A stretch of DNA of 6,279 nt from the IMG/VR virus record IMGVR_UViG_2681813262_000009. One strand, 5' to 3'. The stretch is from a virus. Taxonomy: Duplodnaviria; Heunggongvirae; Uroviricota; Caudoviricetes. Positions 1-6,279 of the stretch are shown here, piece by piece. How positions within the stretch are numbered: the first letter of the stretch is position 1; every line of letters starts with the position of its first letter. The notes under the pieces are model-generated. The model saw nothing but the letters and a program-made list of their open reading frames with translations. It did no database searches and was not told where the DNA came from. The translations under genes and the position numbers were made by a program.

Positions 1-29
1 CAACTGGATATTTTTACAGTATTAAGCAT
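1..29 (-). CDS. 5' end (first ~9 codons, MLNTVKISS...) of a DNA methyltransferase gene; the gene body continues leftwards beyond the window
   Basis: Bases 1-29 are identical to 4063-4091, which is the N-terminus of the 3462..4091 minus-strand ORF carrying a DPPY motif. Whether this copy is intact cannot be seen. Confidence 0.5.
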
Positions 30-61
30 GGATCATTAAGCCTGTCTCTGATAGGCTCATT

Positions 62-80
62 CTGCTTTTGCGCAAAGCAG
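62..80. promoter_or_regulatory. Imperfect palindrome ctgcttttgcgcaaagcag about 35-50 bp upstream of the methyltransferase start; possible operator
   Basis: 7-bp arms ctgcttt/aaagcag around a tgcgc core, seen in the sequence. Function is inferred only. Confidence 0.2.
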
Positions 81-121
81 TGGGCCTGAGGTTTGCTTGT
101 GAACCCAACGCATGAGCAGAT

Positions 122-152
122 GGCTGGTGGGTGCCCCTAACACCCACCAGCC
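122..152. repeat. Perfect 12-bp inverted repeat with 7-nt loop (ggctggtgggtg-cccctaa-cacccaccagcc)
   Basis: Exact reverse-complement arms seen in the sequence. No U-tract follows on either strand, so it is not a classical intrinsic terminator. It lies between the small-ORF terminator and the methyltransferase start. Confidence 0.5.
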
Positions 153-168
153 GCCCATTTACCACAAA

Positions 169-193
169 TAAAAAAGCCTTCACTGCGGAAGGC
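169..193 (-). terminator. Rho-independent terminator after the 65-aa ORF
   Basis: Minus strand reads GCCTTC-CGCAGT-GAAGGC followed by TTTTTTA. The stem contains the ORF stop codon TGA. Confidence 0.55.
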
Positions 194-377
194 GTCTGTA
201 ACAACCGAACTGATAGTCTGCCAGACCCGCCATAACCAGCTGGGTCAGTATTAACTGGCAGCGTTCGCGTGAAAGGTAAGTATTCTGCGCTATCTCCCCG
301 ACTGTCGCCGGTTCGGTAACGCTTAATTCATTAAACACCACTCTGGCGGTTTCTGTCATATCCTGCTGTTTTAGCAT
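180..377 (-). CDS. Hypothetical 65-aa protein, possibly a small winged-helix/HTH-like DNA-binding protein
   Basis: ORF track MLKQQDMTE...RRLPQ. ATG at 375-377 is preceded by AAGGA with ~6-nt spacing. It is identical in both repeat copies and followed by a terminator. The HTH guess rests on the helix-turn-helix-like stretch TVGEIAQNTYLSRERCQLILTQLVMAGL and is inference. Confidence 0.45.
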   Translation of the reverse strand: MLKQQDMTETARVVFNELSVTEPATVGEIAQNTYLSRERCQLILTQLVMAGLADYQFGCYRRLPQ

Positions 378-495
378 GTCTTTTCCTTTTCCGGTTAACG
401 TGACACACCAATAACTCTTGTCGAAAAAGCCAGCAAGCTGAAAGACAGGTATTCACCGCCACCAGCGCGTTTACTGTACTGACGCGATTTCAGTC

Positions 496-521
496 ATAAA
501 AAACCCGCTCGGCGGCGGGTT
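496..521 (-). terminator. tR'-like rho-independent terminator ending a short pR' transcript
   Basis: Minus strand reads AACCCGC-CGCCGA-GCGGGTT followed by TTTTAT, about 65 nt downstream of the predicted pR' start. Confidence 0.65.
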
Positions 522-553
522 GTAGAAACTCTTCTAACGTCAGGCATAAAACG

Positions 554-596
554 CCCATCGTTATGACGAATTTACCACAGATTCCGGAAAAATCAA
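554..596 (-). promoter_or_regulatory. Sigma70 late promoter resembling lambda pR' with a -10-like pause element; the Q-utilisation site is expected here
   Basis: Minus strand: -35 TTGATT (plus 591-596), 16-bp spacer, -10 TAAATT (plus 569-574), 6 nt, then AACGATGGG (plus 562-554). As I recall it, lambda pR' has the same TAAATT -10 followed by AACGATGGG. It sits immediately downstream of the Q-like gene. Confidence 0.6.
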
Positions 597-601
597 CCTT
601 G

Positions 602-1423
602 TTACCTAGTTACCTTTTTTAACTGCCGCTCAGCCCATGCTTCTTCAATATCAAACCGGGTCACCAGCGCATCATAAAATTTCTTAACTGTTTTTTCCCA
701 TGACGCGCGTGTTATCTGGTTTGTCACCTCGCATATAGCATTAAATGCCTCCGTTGATGGTAGTCTTTCATAGCCACGACCACCACAACGCTGGCAGTCT
801 CTGATAACAGGCATACCACGTTTTACCGACTCTTCACGATGAATGGCGACACCACGCCCACGGCAATCCTTACAGGCGGTGGAAACCTCACCCTTTCCGC
901 CACACTCCGGACAGGCAACTTTTACCACCTCCCTGACTTTTTTCCATTCTTCCCAGTAAGACGGATACACACCTTTCGTACACTTTGCCCATACCGGCGG
1001 CTTACCATCCGGATACTGGACCTTGTTTGTAAAAACTACGCTTTCAATAAATTTTTCCCCATAGCAACAAGGGCACTGCTTTTTACTCGCTGCGCTGCGG
1101 GCATAATCCTCAAAAGCGTACGAAGCCATAATGCGCATCACTACCGGTTTTATTTCTGCCGGAAGTTTTCTCAACGCCGCCACACGATCGCACCGACTGA
1201 GTGCATAATCTGCCAGTAATTCTGTTGCCCGCGCCCTGTCATTCATACTGATGCCCATTTTCCCCAGGAACGCAGAAAACCCCATCTCAGCCCGATTCTG
1301 TGTCATGCCCTGCGCGGCCATCACATCAGTGATACTCAGCGCATCTTTTGACGTTGAGGCCGATGCATCGGTCAGGCAAGGGGATTTTGGGGAGTAGTAT
1401 TTCGGTAAATCTTCCAGTTTCAT
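602..1423 (-). CDS. Phage antitermination protein Q (long Q family of enterobacterial lambdoid prophages), 273 aa, cysteine-rich
   Basis: ORF track. Position is immediately after rusA and immediately before a pR'-like promoter/terminator. Contains CxxC motifs (CPCC, CPECGGKG, CKDCRGRG, CQRCGGRG) suggesting zinc binding. N- and C-terminal sequence resembles what I recall of prophage Q homologues. Start overlaps the rusA stop (ATGA). Confidence 0.75.
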   Translation of the reverse strand: MKLEDLPKYYSPKSPCLTDASASTSKDALSITDVMAAQGMTQNRAEMGFSAFLGKMGISMNDRARATELLADYALSRCDRVAALRKLPAEIKPVVMRIMASYAFEDYARSAASKKQCPCCYGEKFIESVVFTNKVQYPDGKPPVWAKCTKGVYPSYWEEWKKVREVVKVACPECGGKGEVSTACKDCRGRGVAIHREESVKRGMPVIRDCQRCGGRGYERLPSTEAFNAICEVTNQITRASWEKTVKKFYDALVTRFDIEEAWAERQLKKVTR

Positions 1424-1794
1424 TTTTTGACCTGCTCTTCATGCATTATGGGGTAAATCTTCACCCCCAGACGTCCACCAGATACTGGCTGACCACGAAC
1501 GATATTGATTTCATCAAACTGCTCATCGTCCATTAACACTCCCGCATGTGTCAGTGCATCCAGTGGTGCTTTCAGGATATTGTCCAGGTCACGACGGCGC
1601 TTATCCGGTGGCTCTGCAATAATCTTTATCGCCAGTCTTCCGGACAGGCTTAATTTCAGTCGCTGCTGACGGACAATAAGCGCCACATCCCGGCGATAAC
1701 GCTCACCGGCTTTTGATACAAAATATGTGTTGTCACGACGTCGCCAGTAAGTATTCACCGTCGGCGGATAAGGTAAAATAAACTCATGGCGCAT
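1420..1794 (-). CDS. rusA: RusA-family Holliday-junction resolvase (crossover junction endodeoxyribonuclease), 124 aa
   Basis: ORF track. The motif PDKRRRDLDNILKAPLDALTHAGVLMDD matches the conserved RusA catalytic region (PDRRRRDLDN...DAL). Translationally coupled to both neighbours. Confidence 0.85.
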   Translation of the reverse strand: MRHEFILPYPPTVNTYWRRRDNTYFVSKAGERYRRDVALIVRQQRLKLSLSGRLAIKIIAEPPDKRRRDLDNILKAPLDALTHAGVLMDDEQFDEINIVRGQPVSGGRLGVKIYPIMHEEQVKK

Positions 1795-2051
1795 CAGCGC
1801 AGCACCTCCTGCACCAGTTTTTCAAACTTTCCGACTCTGGTTTCCAGCTCTGCCACACAGTCCACCAGCTCATCTACTGCTTTCTGTGCGCGATGCTTCG
1901 CCTGCATCAGTTCCCGAAGCGCGGGTACCATATCTTTACGGATAGCGTCTTTTGTTATGCCCGTTTTTTCGAGTTGTTCAGCATGACGCAGCATTTCCTG
2001 CGCGTGTTTACGCAATTGTTCAGGGGTAAAAGTCATTGTCTGGTTGTTCAA
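1794..2051 (-). CDS. Hypothetical phage nin-region protein (85 aa from TTG at 2051, or 80 aa from ATG at 2036), predicted helical
   Basis: ORF track. Stop overlaps the rusA start (TGATG). GGAG lies 9 nt upstream of the TTG. An in-frame stop at 2067-2069 prevents any further upstream extension. Confidence 0.55.
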   Translation of the reverse strand: MNNQTMTFTPEQLRKHAQEMLRHAEQLEKTGITKDAIRKDMVPALRELMQAKHRAQKAVDELVDCVAELETRVGKFEKLVQEVLR

Positions 2052-2171
2052 AAGAAACGCTCCATCTTACTGCTGTCAGTTCGTTTATTACTGTATCTGC
2101 GCGGATTGCCGGGCTTCATGGGAGTGGAAAGCACCCGTGCACTTTCCTGGTCCACAGGCAGAAAATGTCCG

Positions 2172-2212
2172 TAGACTGGCCCCCTGAATCTCCAGACAAC
2201 CAGTATCACTTA
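2172..2212. repeat. IS2 left terminal inverted repeat (IRL)
   Basis: Imperfect match to the reverse complement of 3462-3502 (shared ...TTCCAGACA...TATCACTTA). Confidence 0.85.
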
Positions 2213-2262
2213 AATAAGTGATAGTCTTAATACTAGTTTTTAGACTAGTCATTGGAGTACAG

Positions 2263-2628
2263 ATGATTGATGTCTTAGGGCCGGAGAAACGCAGACGGCG
2301 TACCACACAGGAAAAGATCGCAATTGTTCAGCAGAGCTTTGAACCGGGGATGACGGTCTCCCTCGTTGCCCGGCAACATGGTGTAGCAGCCAGCCAGTTA
2401 TTTCTCTGGCGTAAGCAATACCAGGAAGGAAGTCTTACTGCTGTCGCCGCCGGAGAACAGGTTGTTCCTGCCTCTGAACTTGCTGCCGCCATGAAGCAGA
2501 TTAAAGAACTCCAGCGCCTGCTCGGCAAGAAAACGATGGAAAATGAACTCCTCAAAGAAGCCGTTGAATATGGACGGGCAAAAAAGTGGATAGCGCACGC
2601 GCCCTTATTGCCCGGGGATGGGGAGTAA
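2263..2628 (+). CDS. insC: IS2 OrfA (InsC), 121 aa, HTH transposase N-terminal component
   Basis: ATG at 2263 preceded by GGAG. Protein [29 protein letters not shown]... The ORF track's extended 136-aa start at 2218 is upstream of this site. Confidence 0.9.
2580..2586 (+). other. Programmed -1 ribosomal frameshift heptamer A AAA AAG joining orfA to orfB
   Basis: aaaaaag at 2580-2586 lies in the orfA frame (GCA AAA AAG TGG), and orfB is in the -1 frame overlapping here. This is the classic IS3-family arrangement. Confidence 0.8.
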
Positions 2629-3491
2629 GCTTAGTCAGCCGTTGTCTCCGGGTGTCGCGTGCGCAGTTGCACGTCATTCTCAGACGAACCGATGACTGGA
2701 TGGATGGCCGCCGCAGTCGTCACACTGATGATACGGATGTGCTTCTCCGTATACACCATGTTATCGGAGAGCTGCCCACGTATGGTTATCGTCGGGTATG
2801 GGCGCTGCTTCGCAGACAGGCAGAACTTGATGGTATGCCTGCGATCAATGCCAAACGTGTTTACCGGATCATGCGCCAGAATGCGCTGTTGCTTGAGCGA
2901 AAACCTGCTGTACCGCCATCGAAACGGGCACATACAGGCAGAGTGGCCGTGAAAGAAAGCAATCAGCGATGGTGCTCTGACGGGTTCGAGTTCTGCTGTG
3001 ATAACGGAGAGAGACTGCGTGTCACGTTCGCGCTGGACTGCTGTGATCGTGAGGCACTGCACTGGGCGGTGACTACCGGCGGCTTCAACAGTGAAACAGT
3101 ACAGGACGTCATGCTGGGAGCGGTGGAACGCCGCTTCGGCAACGATCTTCCGTCGTCTCCAGTGGAGTGGCTGACGGATAATGGTTCATGCTACCGGGCT
3201 AATGAAACACGCCAGTTCGCCCGGATGTTGGGACTTGAACCGAAGAACACGGCGGTGCGGAGTCCGGAGAGTAACGGAATAGCAGAGAGCTTCGTGAAAA
3301 CGATAAAGCGTGACTACATCAGTATCATGCCCAAACCAGACGGGTTAACGGCAGCAAAGAACCTTGCAGAGGCGTTCGAGCATTATAACGAATGGCATCC
3401 GCATAGTGCGCTGGGTTATCGCTCGCCACGGGAATATCTGCGGCAGCGGGCTTGTAATGGGTTAAGTGATAACAGATGTCTGGAAATATAG
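2586..3491 (+). CDS. insD: IS2 OrfB (InsD), transposase catalytic (DDE) component, 301 aa; normally made as an OrfAB fusion by frameshifting
   Basis: ORF track [14 protein letters not shown]...[14 protein letters not shown]..., in the -1 frame relative to orfA. Confidence 0.9.
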
Positions 3492-3502
3492 GGGCAAATC
3501 CA
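3462..3502. repeat. IS2 right terminal inverted repeat (IRR)
   Basis: The reverse complement TGGATTTGCCCCTATATTTCCAGACATCTGTTATCACTTA pairs with IRL. Confidence 0.85.
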
Positions 3503-4091
3503 AGGCACTGAACCAGTGCGACACCATGTTTTTCTTTCCTGTGGCATCTGCAATCTGTTTTGCCGTTATCCCCAGGGCCGCGCGCGCATCACGAAAGTAA
3601 GAAATCAGCGGGGCCATCACATGCTGTTTCAGTGCACTGCCCTTCGCCGCATACCCGGCATCTTTCGGACGATACGGCCCCTGATAATGTTCCGCGAACA
3701 GAATGCGCTCTGTGGCGGGGAAATACGCCCGCAGGCTTTCCTTGTTGCATCCGTTCCAGCGTCCGGACGGCTTCGCCCAGATAATATGGTTCAGCACACT
3801 GAAGCGTTCACGCATCATGATTTCGATATCAGATGCCAGGCGATGACCACAGAACAGGTAAAGACTTCCGGCAGGTTTCAGCACCCGCCAGAACTGCGCC
3901 AGACACTGGTCCAGCCACTTCAGGTAATCATCGTCGCCCTTCCACTGGTTATCCCAGCCCTCAGGCTTCACTTTAAAGTACGGCGGGTCCGTGACTATCA
4001 GGTCAACAGAATTTTCGGGTAACGACCGGATAAATTCCAGGCAGTCGGCGTTGATTAACTCGCAACTGGATATTTTTACAGTATTAAGCAT
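3503..4091 (-). pseudogene. Beta-class DNA methyltransferase (N6-adenine/N4-cytosine type, DPPY motif) truncated after codon 196 by IS2
   Basis: ORF 3462..4091 has DLIVTDPPYF at residues 30-39. Only the first 196 codons are non-IS sequence; the last 13 codons and the stop come from the IS2 right end. The C-terminal region expected to bind SAM is absent. Confidence 0.8.
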
Positions 4092-4123
4092 GGATCATTA
4101 AGCCTGTCTCTGATAGGCTCATT

Positions 4124-4142
4124 CTGCTTTTGCGCAAAGCAG
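4124..4142. promoter_or_regulatory. Copy 2 of the imperfect palindrome upstream of the methyltransferase start
   Basis: Identical to 62-80. Confidence 0.2.
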
Positions 4143-4183
4143 TGGGCCTGAGGTTTGCTTGTGAACCCAACGCATGAGCAGAT

Positions 4184-4214
4184 GGCTGGTGGGTGCCCCT
4201 AACACCCACCAGCC
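4184..4214. repeat. Copy 2 of the perfect 12-bp inverted repeat with 7-nt loop
   Basis: Identical to 122-152. Confidence 0.5.
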
Positions 4215-4230
4215 GCCCATTTACCACAAA

Positions 4231-4255
4231 TAAAAAAGCCTTCACTGCGGAAGGC
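4231..4255 (-). terminator. Rho-independent terminator after the 65-aa ORF (copy 2)
   Basis: Identical to 169-193. Confidence 0.55.
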
Positions 4256-4439
4256 GTCTGTAACAACCGAACTGATAGTCTGCCAGACCCGCCATAACCA
4301 GCTGGGTCAGTATTAACTGGCAGCGTTCGCGTGAAAGGTAAGTATTCTGCGCTATCTCCCCGACTGTCGCCGGTTCGGTAACGCTTAATTCATTAAACAC
4401 CACTCTGGCGGTTTCTGTCATATCCTGCTGTTTTAGCAT
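4242..4439 (-). CDS. Hypothetical 65-aa protein (copy 2), identical protein to 180..377
   Basis: Start taken as the ATG homologous to copy 1 (4437-4439). The ORF track's 94-aa form (to 4526) arises only because a 2-bp indel at about 4446 brings an upstream ATG into frame. Confidence 0.45.
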   Translation of the reverse strand: MLKQQDMTETARVVFNELSVTEPATVGEIAQNTYLSRERCQLILTQLVMAGLADYQFGCYRRLPQ

Positions 4440-4558
4440 GTCTTTTTCCCTTTTCCGGTTAACGTGACACACCAATAACTCTTGTCGAAAAAGCCAGCAA
4501 GCTGAAAGACAGGTATTCACCGCCACCAGCGCGTTTACTGTACTGACGCGATTTCAGT

Positions 4559-4584
4559 CATAAAAAACCCGCCAGGCGGCGGGG
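4559..4584 (-). terminator. tR'-like terminator (copy 2) with a different stem-loop sequence
   Basis: Minus strand reads CCCGCC-GCCT-GGCGGG followed by TTTTTTAT. The stem differs from copy 1 but keeps a GC stem plus U-tract. Confidence 0.65.
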
Positions 4585-4617
4585 TGTAAAAAATCTTCTA
4601 ACGTCAGGCATAAAACG

Positions 4618-4660
4618 CCCATCGTTAGAGCAAATTTACCACAGATTCGGGAAAAATCAA
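4618..4660 (-). promoter_or_regulatory. pR'-like late promoter with pause element (copy 2)
   Basis: -35 TTGATT (4655-4660), 16-bp spacer, -10 TAAATT (4633-4638), then AACGATGGG (4626-4618) are all conserved although the surrounding bases differ from copy 1. Confidence 0.6.
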
Positions 4661-4665
4661 CAACA

Positions 4666-5484
4666 CTATCGCGTTACCCTCTTTAACTGCCGCTCCGCCC
4701 ATGCCTCTTCAATGTCAAACCGAACCACCAACGTATCGTAAAAGCGTTTCACTGATTTTTTCCACGTATCAAGCGTGATAGCACTCGTCACTTTGCATAT
4801 GGCATTAAATGCCTCCGTTGATGGCAGCCTTTCACAGCCACGACCACCACAACGCTGGCAGTCTCTGATAACAGGCATACCACGTTTTACCGACTCTTCA
4901 CGATGAATGGCGACACCACGCCCACGGCAATCCTTACAGGCGGTGGAAACCTCACCCTTTCCGCCACACTCCGGACAGGCAACTTTTACCACCTCCCATT
5001 TTTTCCATTCTTCCCAGTAAGACGGATACACACCTTTCGTACACTTTGCCCATACCGGCGGCTTACCATCCGGATACTGGACCTTGTTTGTAAAAACTAC
5101 GCTTTCAATAAATTTTTCCCCATAGCAACAAGGGCACTGCTTTTTACTCGCTGCGCTGCGGGCATAATCCTCAAAAGCGTACGAAGCCATAATGCGCATC
5201 ACTACCGGTTTTATTTCTGCCGGAAGTTTTCTCAACGCCGCCACACGATCGCACCGACTGAGTGCATAATCTGCCAGTAATTCTGTTGCCCGCGCCCTGT
5301 CATTCATACTGATGCCCATTTTCCCCAGGAACGCAGAAAACCCCATCTCAGCCCGATTCTGTGTCATGCCCTGCGCGGCCATCACATCAGTGATACTCAG
5401 CGCATCTTTTGACGTTGAGGCCGATGCATCGGTCAGGCAAGGGGATTTTGGGGAGTAGTATTTCGGTAAATCTTCCAGTTTCAT
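4666..5484 (-). CDS. Phage antitermination protein Q (copy 2), 272 aa; variant allele with a one-residue deletion and a diverged C-terminal ~55 aa
   Basis: ORF track. Identical to copy 1 over most of its length, with KKVREVV changed to KKWEVV and about 12 substitutions in the last ~55 residues. Confidence 0.75.
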   Translation of the reverse strand: MKLEDLPKYYSPKSPCLTDASASTSKDALSITDVMAAQGMTQNRAEMGFSAFLGKMGISMNDRARATELLADYALSRCDRVAALRKLPAEIKPVVMRIMASYAFEDYARSAASKKQCPCCYGEKFIESVVFTNKVQYPDGKPPVWAKCTKGVYPSYWEEWKKWEVVKVACPECGGKGEVSTACKDCRGRGVAIHREESVKRGMPVIRDCQRCGGRGCERLPSTEAFNAICKVTSAITLDTWKKSVKRFYDTLVVRFDIEEAWAERQLKRVTR

Positions 5485-5855
5485 TTTTTGACCTGCCCTT
5501 CAAGCATTATGGGGTAAATCTTCACCCCCAGACGTCCACCAGATACTGGCTGACCACGAACGATATTGATTTCATCAAACTGCTCATCGTCCATTAACAC
5601 TCCCGCATGTGTCAGTGCATCCAGTGGTGCTTTCAGGATATTGTCCAGGTCACGACGGCGCTTATCCGGTGGCTCTGCAATAATCTTTATCGCCAGTCTT
5701 CCGGACAGGCTTAATTTCAGTCGCTGCTGACGGACAATAAGCGCCACATCCCGGCGATAACGCTCACCGGCTTTTGATACAAAATATGTGTTGTCACGAC
5801 GTCGCCAGTAAGTATTCACCGTCGGCGGATAAGGTAAAATAAACTCATGGCGCAT
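5481..5855 (-). CDS. rusA: RusA-family Holliday-junction resolvase (copy 2)
   Basis: ORF track. Differs from copy 1 at two C-terminal residues (PIMLEGQVKK versus PIMHEEQVKK). Confidence 0.85.
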   Translation of the reverse strand: MRHEFILPYPPTVNTYWRRRDNTYFVSKAGERYRRDVALIVRQQRLKLSLSGRLAIKIIAEPPDKRRRDLDNILKAPLDALTHAGVLMDDEQFDEINIVRGQPVSGGRLGVKIYPIMLEGQVKK

Positions 5856-6112
5856 CAGCGCAGCACCTCCTGCACCAGTTTTTCAAACTTTCCGACTCTG
5901 GTTTCCAGCTCTGCCACACAGTCCACCAGCTCATCTACTGCTTTCTGTGCGCGATGCTTCGCCTGCATCAGTTCCCGAAGCGCGGGTACCATATCTTTAC
6001 GGATAGCGTCTTTTGTTATGCCCGTTTTTTCGAGTTGTTCAGCATGACGCAGCATTTCCTGCGCGTGTTTACGCAATTGTTCAGGGGTAAAAGTCATTGT
6101 CTGGTTGTTCAA
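5855..6112 (-). CDS. Hypothetical phage nin-region protein (copy 2)
   Basis: Identical to 1794..2051. Confidence 0.55.
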   Translation of the reverse strand: MNNQTMTFTPEQLRKHAQEMLRHAEQLEKTGITKDAIRKDMVPALRELMQAKHRAQKAVDELVDCVAELETRVGKFEKLVQEVLR

Positions 6113-6232
6113 AAGAAACGCTCCATCTTACTGCTGTCAGTTCGTTTATTACTGTATCTGCGCGGATTGCCGGGCTTCATGGGAGTGGAAAGCACCCGTG
6201 CACTTTCCTGGTCCACAGGCAGAAAATGTCCG

Positions 6233-6279
6233 TAGACTGGCCCCCTGAATCTCCAGACAACCAGTATCACTTAAATAAG
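6233..6279 (+). mobile_element. IS2 left end (first 47 bp), truncated by the window edge
   Basis: TAGACTGGCCCCCTGAATCTCCAGACAACCAGTATCACTTAAATAAG is identical to 2172-2218 and sits at the same junction with the flanking prophage DNA. Confidence 0.9.

What the first reader, a model, noticed from the sequence alone, without database searches (positions are those of the whole stretch)
378..1450. The two tandem copies are mosaic: identical flanks but a hyper-diverged patch over the Q C-terminus and pR'/tR'
A recent duplication should give identical copies. Instead 1-378 and about 1451-2218 are identical between copies, while about 490-790 (versus about 4552-4855) differs at roughly a quarter of positions by eye. 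There is also a 2-bp indel at about 384, a 3-bp in-frame indel at about 950 and two SNPs at about 1434-1441. The patch replaces the last ~55 residues of Q and the spacer, flanks and terminator stem of the late promoter region. The -35, -10, the spacer between them and the AACGATGGG element stay conserved. This looks like gene conversion from a third, related lambdoid prophage, or an old duplication followed by module exchange. A collapsed or chimeric assembly of two prophage alleles is the alternative.
Basis: seen in the sequence. Interest (0 to 1): 0.7.

Follow-up and report, generated by a model that had tools for sequence, protein, structure and literature searches.

The report
Prophage Q-switch alleles in draft contig
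Two near-identical prophage segments differ only by a swapped, naturally occurring version of the DNA-binding end of the Q late-gene switch and its promoter, which is ordinary prophage mosaicism, and their side-by-side layout comes from a short-read draft contig and may be an assembly artefact.

Summary
55 of 59 differences between the copies lie in 263 bp (509-771 vs 4573-4835), about 21% divergence against 0.2% elsewhere.

The patch is not local hyper-divergence. It swaps one common natural allele (a1) of a lambda-Q-family late-control cassette for another (a2). Each allele is at least 99% identical in hundreds of E. coli genomes, and 33 fetched prophage loci match copy 2's patch exactly.

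The swapped unit covers Q residues 218-273, the Q-binding spacer, the pause-proximal hexamer and the terminator. Residues 218-273 align to lambda Q 152-207, the helix-turn-helix half of the body. One edge of the patch falls on a Q domain boundary and the other on a module junction used across lambdoid phages. dN/dS is 0.12 and dS is 1.2, so the divergence is old and under purifying selection.

The "recent tandem duplication" premise is weak. The window is an entire 6,279-bp short-read draft contig (CXEJ01000285.1) and both of its ends lie in the repeat. The internal IS2 has no target-site duplication. Copy 2's methylase flank carries donor-lineage SNPs. The Shigella sonnei complete genomes examined carry this backbone once, with that IS2 split by another IS.

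My best reading is related prophage remnants strung together by the assembler (0.55). A real IS2-bounded duplication with in-vivo exchange is the main rival (0.35). Either way the phenomenon is already known.

The parts
1..2171 (-). Copy 1 of the prophage late-regulatory segment: start of the methylase gene, 65-aa ORF, tR', pR', Q allele a1, RusA, 85-aa ORF.
   Evidence: Bases 772-2330 are identical to the S. sonnei 53G locus. Bases 1-1020 are 100% identical to a separate a1+methylase contig piece in L250.
4063..6232 (-). Copy 2 of the same segment, carrying Q allele a2.
509..771 (-). Divergent patch, allele a1: Q codons 218-273, stop codon, -35, Q-binding spacer, -10, hexamer, and the loop and stem of tR'.
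   Evidence: (55 of 59 differences fall here). At least 99% identical in 630 E. coli records.
4573..4835 (-). Divergent patch, allele a2.
   Evidence: At least 99% identical in 788 E. coli records. 33 fetched loci have zero mismatches in the patch.
602..1423 (-). Q antiterminator, 273 aa, lambda-Q family (PF03589), with a 68-aa insert at residues 114-181.
   Evidence: Pfam 183.7 bits. PDB 7UBM E=1.5e-40. The exact protein is listed in 7,505 blocks of the collection.
4666..5484 (-). Q antiterminator, 272 aa: a2 C-terminus plus a private one-codon deletion (KKVREVV>KKWEVV).
   Evidence: The deletion variant is found in none of 301 fetched loci.
554..596 (-). pR'-like late promoter of copy 1: -35 TTGATT (596..591), 16-nt spacer with the presumed Q-binding element (590..575), -10 TAAATT (574..569), hexamer CGTCAT (568..563), sigma-dependent pause element AACGATGGG (562..554).
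   Evidence: Alignment to lambda pR'. The generic consensus scan does not list it, because it matches only 8 of 12 positions.
4618..4660 (-). pR'-like late promoter of copy 2: the same layout, with spacer SNP G>C at 4649 and hexamer TGCTCT.
502..521 (-). Intrinsic terminator tR' of copy 1 (AACCCGC..GCGGGTT followed by a T-run).
   Evidence: predicted fold energy -13.4 kcal/mol.
4568..4583 (-). Intrinsic terminator tR' of copy 2 (CCCGCC GCCT GGCGGG followed by a T-run). The stem differs from copy 1 but remains paired.
   Evidence: predicted fold energy -12.6 kcal/mol.
1420..1794 (-). RusA resolvase, copy 1 (C-terminus ...IMHEEQVKK). Identical protein to S. sonnei complete genomes.
5481..5855 (-). 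RusA, copy 2 (C-terminus ...IMLEGQVKK).
   Evidence: found only on 7 short draft contigs.
180..377 (-). 65-aa ORF, the first gene after tR' (copy 2: 4242-4439). It is followed by a second terminator at 193..176 (copy 2: 4255..4238).
   Evidence: The 65-aa ORF plus methylase module sits behind Q genes of all three Q families.
2172..3502 (+). Complete IS2 (1,331 bp). Flanks are GTCCG | AGGCA, so there is no target-site duplication. The left junction matches the S. sonnei insertion. The right junction lies in the methylase gene.
3503..4091 (-). N-terminal 587 nt of a DNA methylase gene (PF01555) cut by IS2. It carries a2-lineage bases at 3579 and 3582 and a private G at 4062.
6233..6279 (+). First 47 nt of IS2 again, at the same phage/IS2 junction. 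The contig ends here.

Best explanation
The 'hyper-diverged patch' is a clean swap between two old, common, natural alleles (a1 and a2) of one regulatory cassette of lambdoid prophages.

The cassette consists of:
- the helix-turn-helix half of a lambda-family Q antiterminator (Q residues 218-273, aligning to lambda Q 152-207);
- the late promoter pR' that follows it, with its Q-binding spacer;
- the hexamer next to the sigma-dependent pause element;
- the terminator tR'.

The cassette is exchanged by homologous recombination in the conserved DNA on either side. On one side that is the Q zinc-ribbon and N-terminal coding region. On the other it is the 65-aa-ORF/methylase module. Natural prophages show every combination (shown).

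In this window the two 'tandem copies' are most likely not a recent duplication (inferred). The window is a complete 6.3-kb short-read draft contig from a Shigella sonnei-type genome. Such genomes hold several related remnants:
- 'locus A': IS2-85aa-RusA-Q;
- an a1 + methylase locus;
- an a2 + methylase locus.

These remnants share exact stretches of 100-700 bp. The contig path runs through those shared stretches and through a multi-copy IS2. On this reading the identical flanks and the head-to-tail order owe more to the assembly than to biology.
For: The patch is a natural allele:
- Each allele is at least 99% identical in 630 and 788 E. coli records.
- 33 fetched loci match copy 2's patch with 0 mismatches and share the +TC at 384.
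- dS is 1.23, dN is 0.146 and dN/dS is 0.12.
- Both terminators still fold.

Boundaries:
- The first changed residue, 218, aligns to lambda Q 152. The lambda Q body/HTH segment is 153-207.
- The RNAP-contact residues L268 and T272 (lambda L202 and T206) are unchanged.
- The downstream 65-aa/methylase module sits behind Q genes of all three Q families.
- Patch alleles reassort with Q N-terminal haplotypes and with downstream modules.

Composite contig:
- The window equals contig CXEJ01000285.1 of GCA_001259655.1.
- Its left end starts 1 nt after a private SNP at 4062, and its right end stops 47 nt into IS2.
- The internal IS2 has no target duplication. The same insertion in S. sonnei 53G has the duplication GTCCG, and that IS2 is split by an IS21-family element at about nt 157.
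- In the roughly 30 large contigs read in each of two look-ups, mostly complete chromosomes, this RusA/85-aa backbone appeared in one context only. It was never next to the methylase module and never in tandem.
- The IS2/methylase junction was found in no collection searched.
- Copy 2's methylase fragment carries a2-lineage bases at 3579 and 3582.
- Sister draft assemblies show many different hybrids of these loci, and one scaffold (L307) joins pieces of different prophages.
Against: - The contig keeps SNP-level differences between the copies (384, 934-937, 1436/1442).
- It uses the 731-bp RusA-85aa-IS2 junction stretch twice. A conservative assembler normally does that only at double read depth, which points to two real copies of that stretch.
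- I have no reads, no depth information and no knowledge of the assembler or library.
- The species is inferred from 100% identity of 772-2330 to S. sonnei genomes. I could not confirm it.
- This isolate may lack the IS21-family insertion in IS2.
- Only 24 of the many database blocks holding this backbone were read in each look-up.
Confidence: 0.55

Rival explanations
1. The arrangement is physically real. A prophage remnant flanked by two direct IS2 copies, one upstream of the 85-aa ORF and one in the methylase gene, was duplicated by unequal IS2 x IS2 exchange, or two remnants were joined by IS2 x IS2 recombination. One unit then received the a2 cassette, with its methylase-side flank, from a co-resident lambdoid prophage by homologous recombination. 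That unit later acquired a 3-bp deletion in Q and the 4062 SNP.
For: - The same phage/IS2 junction occurs twice (2172-2218 = 6233-6279).
- Both copies share a RusA haplotype at 1549-1800 that the other natural sequences aligned lack.
- A hybrid IS2 without a target duplication is what IS2 x IS2 exchange produces.
- SNP-level differences between the copies and private mutations in copy 2 show that two distinct sequences exist in the reads.
- Suitable donors exist in related genomes: L251 piece 1 differs from copy 2 over 3505-5081 only at 3579, 3582, 4062 and the private deletion.
- From general knowledge, Shigella genomes are rich in IS-mediated rearrangements.
Against: - No independent assembly or complete genome shows the arrangement or the IS2/methylase junction.
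- From 1443 to 3502 there is no copy-specific marker for more than 2 kb, including a multi-copy IS2. A short-insert library could not support that join.
- The contig's left end stops at the 4062 fork rather than running on to an IS2. That does not fit two units identical by descent unless 4062 G arose after the duplication.
- The scaffolds in this project are demonstrably unreliable in this region.
Confidence: 0.35
2. An old duplication whose copies diverged in place only in the patch, through diversifying selection on Q specificity or targeted hypermutation (for example a diversity-generating retroelement). The flanks would have been kept identical by concerted evolution.
For: The differences cluster on the DNA-recognition part of Q and on its binding region.
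Against: - Both patch sequences exist unchanged in hundreds of unrelated genomes, so they were not generated in this locus.
- Most coding changes are synonymous (17 of 30 changed codons; dN/dS 0.12).
- The substitutions are not adenine-specific (24 of 56 at A; 34 transitions and 22 transversions).
- No reverse transcriptase or template repeat is present in the window.
Confidence: 0.02
3. The differences are sequencing or consensus errors in one copy.
For: The contig comes from a draft short-read assembly.
Against: - All 55 patch differences, the +TC and the two RusA SNPs reproduce variants seen in independent genomes.
- The reading frame and the terminator pairing are preserved.
- Only TGAC>A at 934-937 and G at 4062 are private, and only these could be errors.
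Confidence: 0.01

Closest known systems
Phage lambda Q / pR' / tR' late-gene antitermination cassette (Q-lambda family, Pfam PF03589; PDB 4MO1, 7UBJ-7UBN)
   Same: - Q aligns to lambda Q over residues 1-113 and 116-207 (E=1.5e-40), with all four zinc-ribbon cysteines conserved.
- The promoter has the same -10 TAAATT, a 6-nt hexamer and the pause element AACGATGGG as lambda pR'.
- An intrinsic terminator follows.
- By analogy, Q binds between -35 and -10, loads onto sigma-paused RNA polymerase and makes it terminator-resistant (PMC9388147, PMC4914094).
   Different: - A 68-aa insert with extra Cys motifs lies between body and arm (residues 114-181).
- The spacer (Q-binding) sequence differs from lambda's.
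- The terminator lies only about 45 nt after the pause element, whereas lambda's transcript to the terminator is 194 nt.
- The downstream genes are a 65-aa ORF and a DNA methylase. Lambda orf-64 is not homologous to the 65-aa ORF.
- No activity was tested.
Genetic mosaicism of lambdoid phages, meaning module exchange by homologous recombination between co-resident prophages (from general knowledge: HK97/HK022 comparisons, the O157 prophage pool, Red/Rad52-type recombinases acting on diverged sequences)
   Same: - Sharp transitions from near-identity to about 20% divergence.
- Junctions at a gene or domain boundary and at an intergenic module junction.
- The same alleles reassorted in many genomes.
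   Different: Nothing essential. The only particular point is that one junction lies inside Q, at the arm/body boundary, so that the DNA-binding half of Q travels with its promoter.
Shigella sonnei prophage remnant IS2::IS21-85aa-RusA-Q-IraM (for example 53G, HE616528, about 1.32 Mb)
   Same: Window 772-2330, including the phage/IS2 junction and the first 157 nt of IS2, is identical to it.
   Different: - In the complete genomes the locus is single-copy.
- IS2 there has its GTCCG target duplication and is split by an IS21-family element.
- Q/pR' is decayed: an 8-bp deletion removes the Q stop and part of the -35, and AACGAT is changed to AACTAT.
- Homology ends at window 496, with IraM-type genes downstream instead of the 65-aa ORF and methylase.
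IS-mediated tandem duplication (unequal exchange between direct IS copies)
   Same: The repeat unit is IS2 + methylase fragment + phage segment (4,061-4,064 bp start-to-start). The middle IS2 has flanks from two different insertion sites.
   Different: The units are not identical. The outer junction of unit 1 is not visible. The structure has no independent confirmation.

Membership tests
Q-lambda family antiterminators (PF03589) | Match to the family profile above the curated threshold | tested here: met
   183.7 and 171.5 bits against a cut-off of 26.7. The family is named Q-lambda in PMC9388147.
Q-lambda family antiterminators (PF03589) | Homology to lambda Q over both the N-terminal (torus-forming and body) part and the C-terminal arm + HTH part | tested here: met
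   7UBM_Q: residues 1-113 align to 1-113 and residues 182-273 align to 116-207, E=1.5e-40.
Q-lambda family antiterminators (PF03589) | Zinc-ribbon ligands (lambda C118, C121, C144, C147) | tested here: met
   C184, C187, C210 and C213 are present in both copies.
Q-lambda family antiterminators (PF03589) | Antitermination at its own pR', with dependence on a Q-binding element and on NusA | not testable with these tools
   Needs in-vitro transcription or reporter assays.
Lambda-type Q-dependent regulatory cassette (pR'-QBE-SDPE-tR') | -10 element followed by a -10-like pause element in the initial transcribed region | tested here: met
   TAAATT, 6 nt, then AACGATGGG, aligned column for column with lambda pR'.
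Lambda-type Q-dependent regulatory cassette (pR'-QBE-SDPE-tR') | Recognisable sigma-70 promoter | tested here: inconclusive
   The generic scan lists no site in the window. TTGATT/TAAATT matches 8 of 12 positions, plus a TG two bases upstream of the -10. The assignment rests on the lambda alignment.
Lambda-type Q-dependent regulatory cassette (pR'-QBE-SDPE-tR') | Intrinsic terminator between the promoter and the late genes | tested here: met
   521..502 and 4583..4568; -13.4 and -12.6 kcal/mol.
IS2 (IS3 family) | 1,331-bp element with orfA/orfB and near-identity to known IS2 | tested here: met
   99.9% identity over 1,331 bp. HTH_Tnp_1 and rve domains.
IS2 (IS3 family) | 5-bp target-site duplication of a simple insertion | tested here: not met
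   Flanks are GTCCG and AGGCA. The same left junction in S. sonnei 53G has GTCCG on both sides. The element is therefore a hybrid of two insertions, made either in vivo or in silico.
   Right side: yes, the private RusA haplotype at 1549-1800 is shared. Left side: no. 1-508 is uninformative, and 3579/3582 are donor-type CG where the copy-1 lineage has AT.
   No reads are available.
IS-mediated tandem duplication | Same arrangement in independent assemblies or complete genomes | tested here: not met
   - None of 5,426 complete E. coli genomes covers at least 80% of the window.
- The IS2/methylase junction is absent from E. coli genomes, GTDB species representatives, metagenome contigs and IMG/VR.
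- The roughly 30 large contigs read per look-up show the backbone once.
IS-mediated tandem duplication | Two-fold read depth over the unit | not testable with these tools
   No reads are available.
Diversity-generating retroelement / targeted hypermutation | Adenine-specific changes, a template repeat and a reverse transcriptase nearby | tested here: not met
   Mixed substitution spectrum. No reverse transcriptase among the ORFs or called genes. Only the two-copy repeat was found. dN/dS is 0.12.

The most novel reading that the evidence does not exclude
a1 and a2/a3 may be functionally distinct Q/Q-binding-site pairs. The swapped unit carries the Q recognition helix (TRASWEK in a1, LDTWKK in a2 and a3). 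It also carries the single variable base of the promoter spacer (TTCCGGAAT versus TTCCCGAAT), which lies where the lambda structure places the helix-turn-helix subsite.

In 218 natural loci the helix class and the spacer base never separate (72/72 and 146/146), while markers on both sides do reassort. If the pairs are orthogonal, the cassette would be a portable 'specificity plug'. It would insulate the late switches of co-resident prophages from each other, and its exchange would re-wire which prophage's Q turns on which late operon.

Caveat: the two features are only about 100 bp apart, and the DNA between them is 20% diverged. Complete linkage is therefore expected even without selection.
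Probability: 0.2. Interest if true: 0.45.

Novelty: already known. Interest (0 to 1): 0.15.

Why it matters
Biologically this is a textbook case of lambdoid prophage mosaicism, and possibly only the shadow of one cast by a short-read assembler. It changes little.

Two practical lessons follow:
- 'Mosaic tandem repeats' in draft contigs of IS-rich, multi-prophage genomes such as Shigella should be checked against reads before any evolutionary reading.
- This lambda-family Q gene comes in at least three discrete helix-turn-helix alleles that travel with their own promoter. That gives a simple natural system for asking how Q proteins discriminate between Q-binding elements.

Tried and rejected
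- **Junction searches.** I looked for the source or a second instance of the tandem through the two IS2 junctions.
  - The IS2/methylase junction was found in no collection: GTDB representatives, E. coli complete genomes, metagenome contigs or IMG/VR.
  - The phage/IS2 junction was absent from E. coli genomes and GTDB but was found in six IMG/VR contigs.
- **Exact-protein look-ups.** Look-ups of the copy-2 Q and of the truncated methylase returned nothing. The source locus, as held by the tool, carries a masked N in each of those genes. The RusA copy-2 look-up did find the source contig.
- **Apparent multi-copy IMG/VR loci.** L250, L254 and L256 seemed to show the same tandem. I rejected this because single N characters mark scaffold joins between separate contigs.
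- **Contigs with both alleles.** L064/L164 looked like a tandem but is probably a scaffold gap. L024/L160 hold the two alleles about 23 kb apart.
- **Finding the other methylase loci in a complete S. sonnei genome.** I tried the 65-aa ORF. It is too common (32,001 blocks) and only E. coli-type contexts were returned. The call did show the module behind all three Q families.
- **Lambda orf-64.** It is not homologous to the 65-aa ORF.
- **Rfam.** No family matched in the window.
- **Exact lambda QBE coordinates.** They could not be extracted from the held text of the structure papers. Placing the spacer SNP in the helix-turn-helix subsite therefore remains an inference.
- **Alternative causes of the patch.** I considered and rejected a diversity-generating retroelement, hypermutation and sequencing error.
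Full report
**1. What is in the window**

All phage genes lie on the minus strand. In the direction of phage transcription, right to left, the order is:
- an 85-aa ORF;
- RusA;
- a Q antiterminator of 272 or 273 aa;
- a lambda-like late promoter with pause element and terminator;
- a 65-aa ORF followed by a second terminator;
- the start of an N6/N4 DNA methylase gene.

This segment occurs twice, at 1-2171 and 4063-6232. Between the copies lie a complete IS2 (2172-3502, 1,331 bp, 99.9% identical to E. coli copies) and a 587-nt methylase fragment (3503-4091). The last 47 nt of the window (6233-6279) are the start of IS2 again, at the same junction.

**2. Checking the observation**

A global alignment gives 97.2% identity. 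55 of 59 difference events fall in 509-771 (copy 2: 4573-4835), which is 0.21 per base against 0.002 outside. The binomial P is about 3e-46, and no simulated 263-bp window held more than 22 events.

The remaining differences are:
- +TC after 384;
- TGAC>A at 934-937, an in-frame loss of one codon;
- SNPs at 1436 and 1442.

**3. What the patch encodes**

Q is a lambda-Q homologue. PF03589 scores 184 and 172 bits. PDB 7UBM gives E=1.5e-40, with Q residues 1-113 aligned to lambda 1-113 and residues 182-273 aligned to lambda 116-207 without gaps. A 68-aa Cys-rich insert lies between these two parts.

The lambda structures divide Q into a body (residues 61-113 and 153-207; helices H4-H5 form a canonical helix-turn-helix) and a zinc-ribbon arm (residues 114-152) (PMC9388147).

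The first residue that differs between the copies is 218, which aligns to lambda 152. The protein part of the patch is therefore exactly the helix-turn-helix half of the body plus the C-terminal tail. Thirteen residues differ. Nine of them lie between residues 232 and 248 (lambda 166-182), the turn and the start of the second helix. The residues that contact the RNA polymerase flap tip in lambda (L202 and T206, here L268 and T272) are unchanged.

Downstream, the promoter aligns with lambda pR' element for element: -35, -10 TAAATT, a 6-nt hexamer, and the pause element AACGATGGG. Between the copies the following differ:
- the 5 nt before the -35;
- one spacer base;
- the hexamer (CGTCAT versus TGCTCT);
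- the terminator stem and loop, with pairing kept.

**4. The patch is an imported natural allele**

Each version is at least 99% identical in hundreds of complete E. coli genomes, 630 and 788 records respectively. Among about 300 fetched prophage loci, 33 match copy 2's patch without a single mismatch, and most of those aligned site by site also carry the +TC at 384.

The coding differences are mostly synonymous: 17 of 30 changed codons, dS 1.23, dN 0.146, dN/dS 0.12. The substitution spectrum is mixed. Error, hypermutation and local diversification are therefore excluded.

A sample anchored on a conserved 33-mer shows at least three discrete alleles, a1, a2 and a3.

**5. The boundaries are population-wide junctions**

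In natural loci the patch allele reassorts with:
- the Q N-terminal haplotypes (sites 1021-1118);
- residue 218 (Y or C);
- the hexamer;
- the terminator;
- the downstream module.

The 65-aa-ORF/methylase module is found directly behind Q genes of all three unrelated Q families, PF03589, PF06530 and PF06323. The junction at about 496-509 is therefore a general module boundary. This is classical lambdoid mosaicism.

**6. Why 'recent duplication plus a short conversion patch' is not supported**

The left flank (1-508) is identical in a1- and a2-bearing natural prophages, so its identity between the copies carries no information. Further left, copy 2's methylase fragment has CG at 3579/3582. That matches the major a2 haplotypes (55 loci). 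The copy-1 lineage and the other a1 + methylase loci have AT. The foreign segment in copy 2 is therefore at least 1.26 kb (3579-4835) and open-ended on the left, which fits a single crossover or path switch somewhere in 772-1378.

On the right, both copies share a RusA haplotype (1549-1800) and the phage/IS2 junction that the other natural sequences aligned lack. The SNPs at 1436 and 1442 are natural variants too. Only TGAC>A at 934-937 and G at 4062 are private to this sequence.

**7. Provenance changes the picture**

The RusA of copy 2 led to the source. The window is the complete contig CXEJ01000285.1 (6,279 bp) of draft assembly GCA_001259655.1.

The backbone at 772-2330 is identical to a prophage remnant of Shigella sonnei complete genomes, for example HE616528, which papers cite as an S. 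sonnei reference. In those genomes:
- the locus is single-copy;
- IS2 at this site has its GTCCG target duplication and is interrupted by an IS21-family element about 157 nt in;
- Q/pR' is decayed, with an 8-bp deletion removing the Q stop and part of the -35, and AACGAT changed to AACTAT;
- the downstream DNA is different.

In the window, by contrast, IS2 is intact and its right flank is the methylase fragment. Its flanks are GTCCG | AGGCA with no target duplication, so it is a hybrid of two insertions.

The contig's left end starts exactly one base after the private 4062 SNP, which indicates an assembly-graph fork. Its right end stops 47 nt into IS2.

Related draft genomes contain, as separate contigs, an a1 + methylase piece 100% identical to window 1-1020 and an a2 + methylase piece almost identical to 3505-5081. 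They also show a zoo of hybrids between these loci, with different junctions in closely related isolates. One scaffold (L307) visibly joins different prophages.

No independent assembly or complete genome examined contains the IS2/methylase junction or the tandem.

**8. Weighing the two readings**

For a real IS2-bounded duplication with in-vivo exchange:
- the assembler kept SNP-level differences between the copies;
- it used the 731-bp RusA-85aa-IS2 stretch twice, which suggests two real copies;
- a hybrid IS2 is what IS2 x IS2 recombination makes.

For a composite contig:
- more than 2 kb (1443-3502), including a multi-copy IS2, carries no copy-specific marker, and a short-insert library could not bridge it;
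- the complete-genome evidence (section 7) shows the backbone once only;
- both contig ends lie in the repeat;
- the scaffolds of this project are unreliable in this region.

I put the composite at 0.55 and the real arrangement at 0.35. In either case the mosaic pattern itself has the same ultimate cause: two old alleles of the Q-HTH/pR'/tR' cassette sitting on otherwise near-identical prophage DNA.

**9. Possible functional meaning (inference, not tested)**

In lambda, the helix-turn-helix reads positions 1-4 of a 13-bp Q-binding element that lies between -35 and -10, and the arm reads positions 11-13.

Here the arm is identical in both alleles. The recognition-helix start differs: TRASWEK in a1, LDTWKK in a2 and a3. 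The only variable spacer base (CCGGAAT versus CCCGAAT, about -23) lies at the upstream end of the spacer, next to a GAAT that also aligns with lambda's spacer.

Across 218 natural loci the helix class and the spacer base never separate (72/72 and 146/146). This fits a co-adapted specificity cassette. It is also expected from tight linkage across 20%-diverged DNA, so I rate it at about 0.2.

**10. Verdict**

- The phenomenon is already known, and interest is low.

Noticed in passing
window 1-6279: The window is the complete contig CXEJ01000285.1 (6,279 bp) of draft assembly GCA_001259655.1. The locus as fetched differs from the window only by two masked N characters.
   Followed up: yes
window 883-1084 (Q residues 114-181); copy 2 about 4947-5145: Compared with lambda Q, this Q carries a 68-aa insert between the body and the zinc-ribbon arm. 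The insert has extra Cys motifs (CPCC, ACPECGGKG) and gives a sub-threshold DnaJ CXXCXGXG match. The one-codon deletion private to copy 2 lies in this insert.
   Followed up: partly
L310-L322 (S. sonnei complete genomes), equivalent of window 554-603: In S. sonnei the same Q/pR' is decayed. An 8-bp deletion between ACCT repeats removes the Q stop codon and part of the -35, extending Q to 284 aa. The pause element AACGATGGG reads AACTATGGG.
   Followed up: partly
window 2172-3502; L312 6275-9620: The IS2 in the window lacks a target-site duplication (flanks GTCCG | AGGCA). The same insertion in S. sonnei 53G has GTCCG on both sides and is split by an IS21-family element after about 157 nt of IS2. 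Several draft contigs end exactly at that point (window 2330).
   Followed up: yes
window 4062: G at this position is private to this sequence; about 100 natural methylase sequences have A. It lies exactly one base outside the repeat, and the contig's other end begins at the equivalent of 4063. That pattern suggests a fork in the assembly graph.
   Followed up: partly
window 176-193 and 4238-4255 (minus strand): A second intrinsic terminator (GCCTTC CGCAGT GAAGGC followed by a T-run) comes right after the 65-aa ORF. The late transcript therefore meets two terminators before the methylase gene.
   Followed up: no
L331-L340: The 65-aa-ORF/methylase module sits directly downstream of Q genes of all three unrelated Q families (PF03589, PF06530, PF06323). 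This marks a general module junction just after the late terminator.
   Followed up: partly
L304, L306, L256, L254, L255 (equivalents of window 496-1020): Short-read contigs from related isolates show hybrids of the S. sonnei locus and an a1 + methylase locus, with different junctions. In two cases the junction interval fits the apparent k-mer size of the assembly: an IS2 overhang of 41 nt goes with a junction in a 55-bp shared stretch, and an overhang of 64 nt goes with a junction only in the 343-bp stretch.
   Followed up: partly
L250, L251, L254, L255, L256, L307: Single N characters in the IMG/VR loci, and N runs in L307, mark joins between separate contigs. These records look like multi-copy or tandem arrangements but are not contiguous DNA.
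   Followed up: yes
L160 and L024 (IMGVR_UViG_651053022_000007, 92.8 kb): One long prophage-region contig carries an a1 and an a2 cassette about 23 kb apart, with IS2 fragments next to the a1 copy.
   Followed up: no
L302 / L329 (E. coli FDAARGOS_944, CP065613) and L323 (UGBG01000002): A more intact prophage carries the same 85aa-RusA-Q backbone without the IS2 insertion (99.7% identity over 1450-2172 in FDAARGOS_944). In FDAARGOS_944 its helicase gene is interrupted by IS600.
   Followed up: no
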